DNA from: Lama glama
Taxonomy: Eukaryota
Assembly (NCBI GenBank): GCA_028534125.1
Contig: CM052823.1
Coordinates: forward strand, 38,688,001-38,752,000
DNA length: 64,000 bases
Direction of reading: 5' to 3'
Shown here: positions 11,055 to 57,084 of the stretch, one piece after another
How positions within the stretch are numbered: the first letter of the stretch is position 1
Layout: each line of letters opens with the position of its first letter
The notes under the pieces: model-generated
Told to the model about the DNA's origin: nothing
Databases searched by the model: none
The model's input: the letters and a program-made list of their open reading frames with translations, nothing else
Made by a program: the position numbers and the translations under genes

Positions 11055-11820
11055 AAGATATAGTTTTAAATAAATAAAGGATTGAAAGGTTCAGAAGCAC
11101 CAGGTAGGGCCGGAACAGACCTGGGCCTGTGGCTGCACCAGGAGAGAGCTAACGCTGGCAGAGCCGAGGGGTGCCGGGAGGCCCTGAAAGAAAAGCTCAT
11201 AAATGTCCAAGGTCTGTTTCTGAGGGCCTTGACCCCCAGAAGCCTTGTCCCCTTCATGGCTTCATACTGGATACATGTGAACTCCACAAACCGACTGGGG
11301 GATAATGTGAGAAAAAAGCTCTGTACCTCTCTGGGTTCAGGGTTCATTCAAAGCTGGCAACACTTGACTTTCGAGTTCAAAGGAAAAAACTGCTTATCAA
11401 AGAGCTCAAGAGATTTCTTGAACCTAGATCTAGTATTTACCTTGCAATGTTTTGATGAATGAGGGTTCAGTGATTCCAAAGTACACAGATTAAATTTCCC
11501 TAGAATATACACAATTTGGGAAAATGAAAGGGAAATGGCGCTTTGCGTAAAATCCGTTTTGGGTTCGGCTGTACCCCCAAGTATTTAAAAAATACCACAG
11601 AGCTTGCCAAACCCTAAGTGCTTCTGGGCTCACATAGCCTCAGCTCCCTACTTGAAAATACCTTCCCCGCAGGAAGTCTGTACCCTTCTGTAAGTGAAAG
11701 CATCCCCAGATGGTACAGGCCCGTCTCGTGCTATGTGACGCTCCATCAGAGGGCCTTGGGAAAAGCACAGAGCCCTAGTCACCAGGCTCGTGAGTCCTTC
11801 CTGAAGTCCGTTTACGTGGA

Positions 11821-12220
11821 TGACCCAGGAGCACCGGTCTGTTCAAATTTAGGTAGCAGCACCAAGCGCTCTTCGGTAGGGCTGTGCGTGCGGCGCTGTG
11901 GCTGGGGGACCGGAGCCAATGGAGCGCACCGCGATGAAAGCGAAGCGCTTGTATTCGAGGGAGACGGTCTCCTGCCATTTCCGTGACATTCTTCCTAACT
12001 CTCCTAGAGCAGGATTAGAAATGAGTATCACACAGACCCGAATGTTGCTTCTGAGTCGGGCAGCGCGAGGCGGCCGAGGAGCCGTGGAGACGGCTTCTCA
12101 GGCTGGCAGCCCGGGCGCAGGGTGGAGCCGCGGCCATTCTGTCCCAGGCTTCGTTTCTCGCGCTCGCTGCGCTGGCCTGAGAAGCCGGGCACGTTTCTTC
12201 AACCTTGGAAGCGGCGGAGC
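11821..12220. promoter_or_regulatory. Orphan CpG island-like segment (candidate promoter/enhancer)
   Basis: About 36 CpG in 400 bp by manual count, far above the flanks; CCAAT at 11916-11920. Confidence 0.7.
12091..12187 (+). other. 97-nt imperfect inverted repeat (candidate RNA hairpin)
   Basis: Perfect 13-bp arms cggcttctcaggc (12091-12103) / gcctgagaagccg (12175-12187), plus further nested helices. Confidence 0.6.
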
Positions 12221-39989: not shown

Positions 39990-40108
39990 AGGGAAGAAAT
40001 GTAAGAAGAAAAGGAAGAAGTGGTGGAAAGAAAGGAAATAAAGGGGGAGGAAGAAAAGAAATAAAGGGGGAGGGAGAAAGGAGACAGAAGGGGGAATAAG
40101 AGGAAAAT
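39990..40108. repeat. Polypurine (GA-rich) low-complexity tract
   Basis: Almost exclusively A/G over ~120 bp. Confidence 0.8.
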
Positions 40109-52705: not shown

Positions 52706-53934
52706 GTTATTTTAATTAAAAACCCCTTTGTGCATACATTAGTGGTCTGGAATTGGGGTCTGGACTGGGTGTACTTGCCTGATGGACTGCACTTAACAAG
52801 CCTGGTGCACTGTTACTAATCAAAAGAAAGTGTGTTTCTTTCAAGAGGTTAAAGACTCCAACTGGCTTGAGCAAACAGATAAAAACAAGGGTGTAGCTGA
52901 CATTTTGAAATTGGTACACAAATTCTTGGACCACTCACTCCATACTTATAATTAGGAAAGAATGTTTGTCACTAAAATTTTTAATGAAAATCACAGGTTT
53001 GTCACAGTAGTTTTGCCACAAAATCATGGTTTCACTCAAGAAATGAGGAAAGAAGAGGAAAAAAACTCTTTCAGAAATAACACTTTAATGCAAATTTAAT
53101 GTTAAGCACACATGTTCATGGTATGTAGCAAAACAAAGCTAATAGCATAAAAAGTAATATGACATTTGATTAACTGCTGTTAAACTGAACGTGTTAATTG
53201 CAGAGAAGAAAGACTTGCCAAGGCATGTTAGAGGCTGAGCTTCCAATTTGAACTCGAAATACAAAGGAAATGGCTCTAAGATCTGTGTAGCTGCTTTACC
53301 ATTTACACAAGTCCAAGAAATTCCAAGCTCAAATCCCAGGAATATAAGTCTATTTATTCTACTTAAAGTGTTAACAGAGGACAGTTCAATTAACAGCATG
53401 TAACATTCTTTGAGAAGACCTCAAAATCCCTTAACTTGCCAATAATAGTTTAAAGACTCCACAGTGTTTTAAAGTCTGGGAAAGGATTCGGTCTCTACCA
53501 GAAAGGAGATTGCCCTTGGAGAGCTTGCTAAAGACTTTGGTTAACCAAGAAGCTATAAACCCCAGTGTTCTCACTATTACTCACATATCTTTCACTGTTG
53601 GTAGATCACAGTGGTTCACTTGATTGCTTATAATTCGCAGTATCCTCTGATAGAACTTCATCAACAAGGAGAAAGTTGAAGAACCCAATGCTCCCAATTC
53701 CCACTTTCCCAGCCAATTTTCACCTACTAATAAAATAGTAATAATAACAACAGCAGCAGCAGCAGTAATAACCAGAGCAAAATAATAACCACCACAATGA
53801 TAAGCAGACAGACTGGATGGTCATGGAGACACTGGGTAGTAACGCTTGGTTTCTGCTTTTAATCCATCTCGTGATTGAAAACTTTGGTAAAGAAAGAAAA
53901 CACACAAACACAGATACACCTGATTTTAGTAAAA

Positions 53935-53969
53935 TTAAGGACTACAGAGGATGAAGATTTTAGTAGAAT
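53935..53969 (+). repeat. 35-bp dispersed exact repeat, copy 1 (probable donor)
   Basis: ttaaggactacagaggatgaagattttagtagaat, identical to 56886-56920. Confidence 0.95.
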
Positions 53970-54059
53970 TAAAGTTTGGAAAATGCTATAAATTTATTAT
54001 CTTTAATAAGCACGATAGGTAAGTTGCTAGCTGAGATACTGACAAATACCTTTCCCTGC

Positions 54060-54215
54060 TTTTCACATTGACTGCATACAAATCTACTGGATTATAAAGT
54101 TCGTGAAGTCAGAGACCATGTCTGCCATGTCTAGAACTAAATCCTCAACTCCTCGCACAGTGCTGGTCCATGTTAGGCATTCATTGCAAGTATGTGTGGA
54201 ATGAATGAATGAATG
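54060..54215 (+). mobile_element. L2 3' end
   Basis: 'cagagaccatgtctg...cacagtgctgg...taggcattca...gaatgaatgaatgaat'. Confidence 0.8.
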
Positions 54216-54284
54216 GAAAAATAAAAGCCAGCAAGATTATTGACAGACATTGGAAGCAAACAGAACTTAAAGAACCTTAAACAA

Positions 54285-54475
54285 ATTATGCAATACTATG
54301 TGCTCAACACCATTCACATGGAATAAGTCATTTCACCCCCAAAACAGTCCTAGGAAGTGTTTCTATTATTATCCTCATTTTATAGTTGAGAAAACTGAGG
54401 CACAGAAAGACACACAGCTTAAGTGGGGGAGTTGAGAAGCAGTCTGGTTTCAGAGTCTATACTCTTACCCATCAT
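54285..54475 (-). mobile_element. MIR SINE
   Basis: 'ctattattatcctcattttatagttgagaaaactgaggcacaga'. Confidence 0.85.
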
Positions 54476-55089
54476 ACAAAAATCTTAAACTCAGATCGAT
54501 GACCCGTGCCTCCCTAAAAGTAGACCTTGAATGTGTAACATTTTAAAAGTGCCAAGGTGGGACATGCCAGTCAGAAGTGCTCACGGGCATGAAAATGGAG
54601 TTACTAGGGGAGAAAATTAGCAGTGTCTTAGTCTGTCAGGCAAAGCAATGATTTTTTAAAATCACTTCCTCAGAACCACCAAATACGAGAGAGAGAAGCC
54701 AAGGGAGACATCTACTCCCACTCTTCACCCTTTGCAAGTGTTTAGGAGAGTATCTGGCAAAGTGTAGGTGCTGCATAAGTGTTGTCATTACTTAAATGCC
54801 TTCTTCAATACAGGTATCGTTCTCTTTTCCACACTTCAGTTCCTGCAGGCATTCAAGGGATGACCAAGTCCATTGCCAACAAGTGTATTATCAGAAAACG
54901 ATCTCTTACATGGAGATAAAACACAAATTGGTATTATTCCCGTCCACTTTGACAATGCAGGACAGCTTTTGTATAAAACGCTCTGCTGTAGGATAGCAAC
55001 TCAGCTGTTTAAAGGTAGTACCTTGTCCCCTAAGTCCTCATCTGACCTCAGGTTCATTAACCACTCATTTGTGCCATGAATTCAAATTG

Positions 55090-55450
55090 TCTTCACCAGT
55101 TTGGATGTCCTATTCTGGATACAGTCTGATCAGTCACTGCACCTCCTAAATTATGTCATCAGAATTGGACATAATATTGCAGCTGCTTTCTGACCAAGGC
55201 AGCTTTTTAAGGGATTATTAGATCGCATGATCTGGAAACTATTTCTGTTAATGTGGCCTATTATTATGTGATTTCTATGCCGTTTCTATGCTTGCATCAT
55301 GCTGTTGGTTCATAATCAAATGGAAGCCAGCTAAAACCCCTGACCCATTACCATGTGCCTTTTACCTTGTGCCCATGAAATTAATAGATTGGCCTTAACT
55401 CTTTGATTTTACTTTTATTGCATTAAATTTCATCTGTTTTAGTCTAGAGT
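55090..55450 (-). mobile_element. CR1/L3 LINE fragment
   Basis: 'cagaattggacataatattgcag...tctgacca...gatctggaaactatttctgttaatgtggccta...gctaaaacccc' resembles the antisense L3 RT region. Confidence 0.6.
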
Positions 55451-55489
55451 TTTGAGATTACTTTGTATTTTAATTCTATTGTTAAATGT

Positions 55490-55860
55490 GAATTTTACAA
55501 GAAAGAGAGTGAAATTTAAGTTTTCAGGGCCCCTCACTTGCACAGATCCCTTCTAAGACCCTGGGTGGGGCCCTAGCAGTGTGTGCGTATAGTCAAAGTT
55601 TTGGTAGAATTAGCATAAATATGACATCTTAACTCCAATCAGTTTCTGATCCTCCCCCTCCATTTTCCCCTCTGTCTGTTTCATTCTGTTTAGAATGAAA
55701 AAGGAAATCACAACAAATTACAAATCTTAAAAAGCTGACATTCCACAAGCATCACAAAATCCAGGAAAATAACATCATATTTTTATTAATTCACTCCTTA
55801 GGGACTTTTATTTCTTTTTTTTCCCTACAGTTTTCTTGCTTTATCCTCTTTGAGGGCAGG
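55490..55860. mobile_element. hAT-Tip100 DNA transposon fragments (Zaphod-like)
   Basis: 'ttcagggcccctcacttgcacag...cccttctaagaccctgggtggggccctagca' matches a recalled Zaphod-type end. Confidence 0.6.
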
Positions 55861-56885
55861 TTTATGTCATTTGGGTCTGCATAAAGGCCTCCTCCAATAG
55901 CAATTTACTGATTGAGTAATAAATAAACATATAATAAAATCTCAGCAAACTGAAAAAATTGAGTCAAACTAGTCTAAGTAGACAATGTGAATTACAGAAT
56001 TTGTAAATTGCCTGAATTTCCAGTGCTCTTCAATATATATTACTAAGGCAGAACTAAATTATAAATGTATACTCTAAAGGCAAAGTTAAATTTATAAGAC
56101 TACCTCATATAATAATATAACGTAAGTATCAAAATGTCTTTAACACAAAAAATTAATAATGCAATAACTGGCTTGGTTGAGCCATTTACTTTGATAAAGA
56201 ATATTTGAGTTGAAATTAATTTTGAAAGCTTTATTTAATAAAATCATATTTTGTGATGGAACTATTGCTAATATTGTAATTATGGTTTTCAATTCATAGT
56301 TTATTGCATATCTGGATGGGTCTGTTATATTTTCTAGAGGTTATATTTAAAATGTAAAACTTATTTAATATGTGATTTCAAGAATACAGGATTTAATGGT
56401 AAGCCATTTATTAGTATATACTGATTTAACTTAGCTTCATATAGTAAGCTGAATGAAAAGTAATTATTTTGAAGTTAGATTTCTACCCATAGTAATCAAT
56501 ATCAATCACGAAAATTAGCATCTATTCCCAAACATGGAATTTCTCAGACTCTTCATTATAGACAGTGTTAAATCAGAGCCAAAAATTCATAAGTAAAATT
56601 TGTAACTAAATAGAATTTAAAATATTTGGGGAGCTGGCAATTTGTAGGAAAACTATAGTGAATCCTTCTGCAATCTTTCCTCCAAGTGTGAAATTTATAT
56701 ATTTGTAAAAGAGACTCATGATCAGAGAAAGGCAACTAAATGTCTTCGGCACTATCAAGGGCTCTTCCTTCTAATATTAATCAACAGTGAGGCAATCAAC
56801 ACAAGGCCTCGGGACAGCTGGGAAACCTTGATGCAGACCTCAAGGCTGCTGCAGGGCAGCGGGATGTAGGGTTCCATCTCATTTC

Positions 56886-56920
56886 TTAAGGACTACAGAG
56901 GATGAAGATTTTAGTAGAAT
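56886..56920 (+). repeat. 35-bp dispersed exact repeat, copy 2 (insertion flanked by 13-bp direct repeats)
   Basis: Identical to 53935-53969; flanked by atctcatttctta (56876-56888 and 56919-56931). Confidence 0.95.
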
Positions 56921-57084
56921 CTCATTTCTTATACTCCATCAGCTCACCAGCCTCTTTGATCCAGCTATTTCTGGTGATAATGACACCCTTTTTTGTTTCA
57001 TTTGCTTACACACTAAAGTTTTTCATTGTTTTGGTTCAGTGAATTACTCAATAAAATAAAGTTTTTACAAAGCCCTAACTAGAT

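What the first reader, a model, noticed from the sequence alone, without database searches (positions are those of the whole stretch)
53935..56931. Templated insertion: 35 bp copied from 3 kb away, with a 13-bp target-site duplication and junction microhomology
Seen: ttaaggactacagaggatgaagattttagtagaat occurs exactly at 53935-53969 and 56886-56920. The second copy is bracketed by atctcatttctta (56876-56888, 56919-56931). The bracket overlaps the copied sequence by 3 nt (tta) on the left and 2 nt (at) on the right. There is no poly(A) and no recognisable TE sequence in the insert, and the perfect identity implies a recent event. Known: polymerase-theta end joining and MMBIR make templated insertions with microhomology, while L1 TPRT makes ~7-20 bp TSDs at TTTT/A-like sites. 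Inference: the reconstructed empty site (..atttctt/at..) resembles an L1 endonuclease site, and priming there would copy a minus-strand template. This could be RNA-templated repair from a local minus-strand nascent transcript, or a DNA template switch.
Basis: partly seen in the sequence, partly recalled or inferred. Interest (0 to 1): 0.7.

Follow-up and report, generated by a model that had tools for sequence, protein, structure and literature searches.

The report
Local DNA copy inside duplicated site
A 35-base stretch of apparently non-coding mammalian DNA occurs twice, 3 kb apart, most likely because a staggered DNA break was patched by copying neighbouring DNA; it is real and shared by related animals, but it is a known and common kind of repair scar.

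Summary
The 35-mer occurs only twice in the 2.35-Gb genome, and the second copy sits in a perfect 13-bp bracket with 3- and 2-nt overlaps. It is not an assembly artefact: 4 of 4 sequencing runs laid (four organism labels, four studies) show the two-copy signature and no empty allele. So it is shared, not shown to be polymorphic, and identity bounds its age only to under about 16-35 My.

The anatomy is a published class: proximal repair-mediated duplication, type 'MH+TSD' (PMC2671141). A second bracketed local copy lies within the 1.86 Mb surveyed, and this scan noted the class before in another genome (e1-9243004).

Best reading (0.68): DNA-templated repair of a break with 3' overhangs. L1 reverse transcription of a local RNA stays possible (0.2): the L1 cut-site match is inconclusive, there is no poly(A), and no host transcript was found.

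No outgroup was available. Ordinary; low interest.

The parts
53935..53969 (+). Donor (inferred) copy of the 35-mer
   Evidence: identical to 56886-56920; 2 copies in the genome; donor-left junction seen as a loose end in 4 of 4 runs
53922..53938 (+). First copy of a 17-bp direct repeat (1 mismatch, period 34) around the donor; overlaps the start of the 35-mer by 4 nt
   Evidence: extends to 17 of 19
53956..53972 (+). Second copy of the donor's 17-bp repeat; overlaps the end of the 35-mer by 14 nt
56876..56888 (+). Left copy of the 13-bp target duplication; last 3 nt shared with the start of the 35-mer (inferred priming microhomology)
   Evidence: left junction spanned by a contig in run X1 only
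56886..56920 (+). Acceptor (inferred inserted) copy of the 35-mer; 56889-56918 are the 30 bases that can only come from the donor
   Evidence: separate 35-letter record in 4 of 4 runs
56919..56931 (+). Right copy of the 13-bp target duplication; first 2 nt shared with the end of the 35-mer (inferred resolving microhomology). It ends in an L1-endonuclease-like TCTT/A, possible nick between 56930 and 56931
   Evidence: right junction on an unbranched contig in 4 of 4 runs; motif tests inconclusive

Best explanation
The 35 bases at 56886-56920 are an exact second copy of 53935-53969 inside a 13-bp duplication, most likely made in a germline ancestor when a staggered break at the acceptor was repaired by copying the neighbouring DNA 2.95 kb away. 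Inferred steps: (1) two nicks 8-13 bp apart leave 3' overhangs; (2) the top-strand 3' end pairs by 3 nt with the donor's bottom strand and is extended by about 32 nt; (3) the new strand is released and anneals by 2 nt to the tip of the other overhang; (4) fill-in doubles the overhang, giving a net gain of 43 bp and leaving the donor intact. What made the nicks is open; L1 endonuclease is about an even bet. The donor's own 17-bp repeat may have exposed a 34-nt single-stranded loop that set the length copied (untested). No function is indicated.
For: Shown: exact anatomy; two copies only; present in 4 of 4 runs. Microhomology of at least 3 and 2 nt arises in 1.1-1.8% of random joins. PMC2671141 Table 1: of 39 duplications with a donor under 5 kb away, 3 are MH+TSD, 6 have any TSD and 0 have poly(A); stated ranges are MH 2-9 nt and TSD 4-21 nt; 824 of 1,136 donors lie within 5 kb. 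Breaks with 3' overhangs give duplications experimentally, and those made by theta-mediated joining span nearly the whole overhang and show microhomology (PMC8355091 passages). The only other bracketed single-copy local duplication in 1.864 Mb has a 13-nt fold-back copy of its own target at one junction, which points to DNA template switching in that event. No poly(A).
Against: No outgroup was seen, so the empty site and the direction are inferred from the bracket. The site passes an L1-type rule that 4 of 9 real tailed insertions nearby pass and only 5.8% of random sites pass. A 12-13-bp duplication lies inside the 12-19 bp of those 9 insertions. The duplication set in PMC2671141 was 50 bp or longer and was assigned to DNA repair from sequence features, not by experiment. 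Plain DNA repair does not by itself explain why the copy matches the donor's repeat period (0.058% of 35-bp windows are so placed; a post-hoc figure).
Confidence: 0.68

Rival explanations
1. L1 ORF2p nicked the top strand after TCTT, primed on a minus-strand nascent RNA from the donor by 2-3 nt, reverse transcribed about 33 nt and joined by 2-nt microhomology: a tailless, L1-free local retrocopy with a 12-13-bp target duplication.
For: The polarity fits: the T-rich end of the bracket is the end where the copy starts. The site reads AT/AAGAA in L1 sense; 4 of 9 tailed insertions nearby have /AAGA sites and 4 of 9 pass the tailored rule, against 5.8% background. Tailless retropseudogenes with target duplications and 2-18 nt of priming complementarity exist (PMC5322556 passages). 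Experimental templated insertions can come from RNA (PMC5110952 part 2).
Against: By plain mismatch count 34% (6-mer) or 18% (7-mer) of random sites do as well, and the tailored rule was chosen after seeing the site. No poly(A) or signal; priming complementarity is at the minimum. No host transcript: 0 convincing Pfam hits among the 150 best-scoring of 2,653 ORFs in 304 kb (one sub-threshold hit), 0 Rfam hits in the window, no consistent strand skew. An L1 nick can also be repaired from DNA.
Confidence: 0.2
2. Reverse direction: the 56.9-kb structure is the older one, and the 53.9-kb site gained 34 bp by copying from it, leaving by 4-nt microhomology and returning by a 13-of-14 match, which produced the 17-bp bracket.
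For: The first copy is also bracketed, and its bracket overlaps both ends of the 35-mer. The one mismatch in that bracket would need no later mutation.
Against: It needs a pre-existing 13-of-14 match within 3 kb, which 0.7% of sites have, beyond the 2-9 nt microhomology range of PMC2671141. It leaves the perfect 13-bp bracket to an earlier event whose 30-bp insert has no other source in the genome.
Confidence: 0.07
3. Assembly artefact, chance match, or two copies of a small repeat family.
For: The left junction was directly spanned only in run X1, which the tool flags as a possible source of this DNA.
Against: X7, X14 and X16 (not flagged, three further studies) each hold the right junction and a separate 35-letter record. 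Chance about 1e-16. No third copy at up to 3 mismatches.
Confidence: 0.01

Closest known systems
Repair-mediated duplications, proximal class 'MH+TSD' (Pace et al. 2009, PMC2671141; abstract, sections 7 and 14, passages seen)
   Same: Donor under 5 kb away and intact, microhomology within 2-9 nt, target duplication within 4-21 nt, no poly(A), germline, also found in cow and dog
   Different: 35 bp is below that study's 50-bp floor; not inside a recognised repeat; no outgroup confirmation here; donor has its own 17-bp repeat
Doublets / short paired duplications (Thomas et al. 2004; paper not held; known here only through PMC2671141 section 14)
   Same: Short, exact, single-copy pair lying close together
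   Different: Could not compare details; whether target duplications were tallied there was not seen
Polymerase-theta templated insertions (PMC11541566 passages; PMC8355091 passages)
   Same: Priming and resolving microhomologies of 2-3 nt; duplication of a 3' overhang
   Different: Templates there are typically under 10 bp and within about 20 bp of the break; here 35 bp at 2,951 bp
Templated sequence insertion polymorphisms, classes 1 and 2 (PMC5110952, parts 1-2 of 4 read)
   Same: Class 1: duplication of 5 bp or more and a near-TTTT/A site. Class 2: microhomology and no tail
   Different: Class 1 needs poly(A) and a signal (absent); class 2 has no target duplication (present); donors there are distant; not polymorphic in the 4 runs laid
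Tailless retropseudogenes (PMC5322556 passages)
   Same: Target duplication, no tail, short target-template complementarity
   Different: Sources are abundant RNAs dispersed genome-wide; here the source is an unannotated stretch 3 kb away with no RNA shown

Membership tests
Proximal repair-mediated duplication (MH+TSD) | Donor on the same chromosome within 5 kb and left intact | tested here: met
   2,951 bp apart; both copies in 4 of 4 runs
Proximal repair-mediated duplication (MH+TSD) | Microhomology 2-9 nt and target duplication 4-21 nt | tested here: met
   3 and 2 nt; 8-13 bp; ranges
Proximal repair-mediated duplication (MH+TSD) | No poly(A/T) tail | tested here: met
Proximal repair-mediated duplication (MH+TSD) | Empty site shown in an outgroup or in a repeat consensus | tested here: inconclusive
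   No empty allele in 4 of 4 runs; no paralogous repeat across either site in 1.864 Mb; no relatives' genomes held; metagenome scan 0
L1 TPRT product (class 1 TSIP) | Poly(A) tail and polyadenylation signal | tested here: not met
L1 TPRT product (class 1 TSIP or tailless retropseudogene) | Endonuclease site TTTT/A at the end of the duplication | tested here: inconclusive
   TCTT/A; background 18-34% generic, 2.5-6% tailored; 4 of 9 local tailed insertions pass the tailored rule
L1 TPRT product (class 1 TSIP or tailless retropseudogene) | Target duplication of typical length | tested here: met
   12-13 bp in that register; 12-19 bp in 9 local tailed insertions
L1 TPRT product (tailless retropseudogene) | Source RNA expressed in the germline on the template (minus) strand | not testable with these tools
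Canonical polymerase-theta templated insertion | Template short and within about 20 bp of the break | tested here: not met
   35 bp at 2,951 bp, against PMC11541566
Canonical polymerase-theta templated insertion | 2-3 nt priming and resolving microhomology | tested here: met
Class 2 TSIP | No target duplication | tested here: not met
   13-bp bracket; definition
Transposable element insertion | Insert is a multi-copy family | tested here: not met
   2 copies at up to 3 mismatches

The most novel reading that the evidence does not exclude
The bracketed subset of short local duplications is made by L1 ORF2p: it nicks at a TTTT/A-like site and copies a nearby nascent, non-polyadenylated RNA (or a single-stranded loop thrown out by the donor's direct repeat), leaving no L1 sequence and no tail. 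That would be a hidden, germline, L1-driven route to local duplication, so far filed under DNA break repair. Searches found no paper making this claim; subscription journals are not covered.
Probability: 0.15. Interest if true: 0.55.

Novelty: new member of a known kind. Interest (0 to 1): 0.17.

Why it matters
As a single locus it matters little: a clean, shared 43-bp gain in apparently non-coding DNA, usable as a clade marker once an outgroup is aligned. The class is published (PMC2671141) and probably numbers in the order of a thousand or more in this genome (1 further case in 1.86 Mb; rough extrapolation). What is open is who makes the bracketed subset, DNA repair or L1. This site cannot settle that alone, but it suggests a cheap genome-wide test: cut-site motif, template strand against transcript strand, and whether donors are enriched for direct repeats.

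Tried and rejected
Outgroup or empty site: no relatives' genomes held; metagenome scan of the 35-mer gave 0; look-alike notes gave 0. blastn and nhmmer of both sites, with and without the gained bases, against 1.864 Mb found no old repeat spanning either site.
Source of the 17-bp spacer in the donor repeat: best other matches 14 of 17, chance level.
Hairpin at donor or acceptor: z between -0.73 and +0.20, no special structure.
Circle intermediate from the donor repeat: the copy is colinear with the donor, so a circle is not needed.
The 35-mer as the target duplication of a 2.9-kb insertion: rejected, because the second copy has its own bracket and the interval is mostly single-copy.
Host gene and strand: 150 of 2,653 ORFs scanned, one sub-threshold hit only; Rfam 0; skews inconsistent.
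Missing cover left of the insert in X7, X14 and X16 is not evidence either way. Contig depth ratios of 1.6-2.6 were not used as copy numbers.
The second bracketed event as support for L1: it ends 2 nt from a perfect TTTT/AA, but its bracket can be read as 20 bp with the motif inside and its junction is a DNA fold-back, so I did not count it.
The first bracket-first survey wrongly filtered out this site and was redone (timed out).

Full report
Observation. The 35-mer is exact at 53935-53969 and 56886-56920 and cannot be extended on either side; the 13-bp bracket at 56876-56888 and 56919-56931 is exact and overlaps the copy by 3 and 2 nt. Apart from microsatellites it is the longest exact repeat in the window. 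The own genome (2.35 Gb) holds 2 matches at 0 and at up to 3 mismatches, reversed controls 0; 301-bp stretches around each copy match only themselves and each other. Chance is about 1e-16. The net gain at the acceptor is 43 bp; the split between duplicated target (8-13 bp) and templated part (30-35 bp) is ambiguous because of the microhomology.

Is it real, and how old? One search listed 16 DNA runs under six organism labels holding 0.92-0.98 of the sampled words. I laid 4 of these 16 on 56720-57060: X1, X7, X14, X16, from four labels and four studies; X1 may be the assembly's source. All 4 show a separate 35-letter record at 56886-56920, a contig carrying the donor's left flank as a loose end, and an unbranched contig from 56891 through the right bracket to 57060. 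A record of exactly that length implies two neighbours on each side (inference from how such graphs are built). X1 also spans the left junction (56720-56915), and its 2,779-letter contig from the donor's right side would end at 56718, which accounts for the spacing. No deletion, joint or empty allele appeared in any of the 4; contigs drop rare variants, so this shows sharing, not strict fixation. X16 differs at 3 of 170 flanking bases yet carries the insert, so the event predates that divergence. Identity gives only an upper bound of 16-35 My for assumed rates of 2.2 to 1.0e-9. 'Recent' is therefore not established.

The donor lies inside a 16-of-17 direct repeat of period 34 (53922-53938, 53956-53972), and the copied stretch runs from offset 13 of the first copy to offset 13 of the second: one period plus one base. 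Only 0.058% of 35-bp windows in 1.864 Mb are so placed (post hoc). In a blastn survey, 2 of 44 copies had a bracket of 14 or more at up to 2 mismatches (this donor, 19; the 75-bp event, 20), while 4 of 298 random windows reached 14 and none more. Both copies are thus bracketed, which makes the direction an inference. Forward (53.9 to 56.9 kb) needs only typical 3- and 2-nt microhomology. Reverse needs a 13-of-14 chance match within 3 kb, found at 0.7% of sites. The repeat could have exposed a 34-nt single-stranded loop, by slippage or as a fresh one-strand patch, which would set the length copied; this is untested, and no hairpin stands out.

How common? In 1.864 Mb around the window, 16 of 450 seeded pairs passed filters as single-copy local duplicates of 25 bp or more (some may be chance or old repeats); 2 of the 16 have a perfect bracket of 13 bp or more. 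A bracket-first survey found 318 bracketed segments, 6 with a nearby match over half their length: this one, a 75-bp inverted copy with its donor about 1 kb away and a 15-bp bracket, 3 near-tandem cases and 1 multi-copy tailed element. Leaving out this ascertained case, about one per 1.8 Mb suggests an order of a thousand per genome (rough). The 75-bp event has a 13-nt reverse-complement copy of its own target at one junction, a mark of DNA template switching.

Mechanism. Two nicks 8-13 bp apart leave 3' overhangs; the top 3' end pairs by 3 nt in the donor, is extended about 32 nt, is released, and anneals by 2 nt at the tip of the other overhang; fill-in doubles the target. All steps are inferred. 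Microhomology this long at both ends occurs in 1.1-1.8% of random joins. Breaks with 3' overhangs yield duplications experimentally (PMC8355091 passages). Canonical polymerase-theta templates are under 10 bp and within about 20 bp of the break (PMC11541566 passages), so strand invasion of the synthesis-dependent type fits the distance better; the enzyme cannot be named.

The L1 reading. The best register reads TCTT/A at the priming end, with the right polarity. By mismatch count to TTTT/AA or TTTTT/AA, 34% or 18% of random sites do as well. By a rule allowing one T-to-C, chosen after seeing the site, 5.8% (or 2.7% for five bases) do, and 4 of 9 tailed insertions found nearby pass it (two of the 9 may be chance pairings). 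That is a likelihood ratio of about 2-8 for an L1 nick, so roughly an even bet. An L1 nick does not imply an RNA template. There is no tail or signal, no gene among 150 of 2,653 ORFs in 304 kb, no Rfam hit and no consistent skew. Tailless retropseudogenes with 2-18 nt priming exist (PMC5322556 passages), so the reading is not excluded: 0.2. L1-linked templated insertions in tumours are attached to L1 sequence and lie within 15 bp of the site (bioRxiv 2024.08.27.596794 passages); the L1 chimeras of PMC13174262 (passages) likewise contain L1. Neither matches.

Comparison with what is known. PMC2671141 (abstract, sections 7 and 14, passages) reports 824 proximal duplications in human and 202 in cow; among 39 inspected with donors under 5 kb, 3 are MH+TSD, 6 have some TSD and none has poly(A). 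This locus meets the three sequence features of that class; the empty-site feature could not be shown. It fails class 1 TSIP (no tail) and class 2 TSIP (has a duplication) (PMC5110952, parts 1-2 of 4). Thomas et al. 2004 was not held. Supplements were not consulted; Table S1 and Figure S1 of PMC2671141 may show whether its MH+TSD cases sit at L1 sites. Paper searches. This scan noted the same class in a cat-family genome (e1-9243004; unchecked).

Verdict. Real, shared, single-copy, and a new member of a known kind. No sign of function. Interest 0.17; the double bracket and the open L1 question keep it above the floor.

Noticed in passing
L056:762-873, donor L056:1752-1826 (G000:C8:38468762-38469826): Exact 75-bp inverted local copy, donor 971 bp away, inside a 15-bp perfect bracket (20 with 2 mismatches); the left junction holds a 13-nt fold-back copy of the target, and a perfect TTTT/AA lies at the end of the bracket.
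   Followed up: partly
L041:5107-5221 and L041:6125-6239: Exact 115-bp direct single-copy pair 1,018 bp apart with no bracket.
   Followed up: partly
L117, from about 1832 and from about 3225: 195-bp, 98% identical direct local pair 1,393 bp apart, no clear bracket.
   Followed up: no
window 40035-40073: Exact 16-bp purine-rich direct repeat with period 23.
   Followed up: no
L027:1373-1488: Short tailed, multi-copy insert with a 12-bp target duplication; it looks like a truncated L1 3' end (recalled, not tested). Used only to calibrate the cut-site rule.
   Followed up: partly
L123, around 2166-2268: 45-bp near-tandem duplication in a stretch resembling a U6 snRNA pseudogene (the U6 label is recalled, not tested).
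   Followed up: no
window about 11600-12100: CpG-island-like stretch, the only one called in the window; no gene assigned.
   Followed up: no
window 56719 and 56932, 56938, 56989: A two-allele bubble next to 56719 in run X1, and three flank differences in run X16.
   Followed up: no
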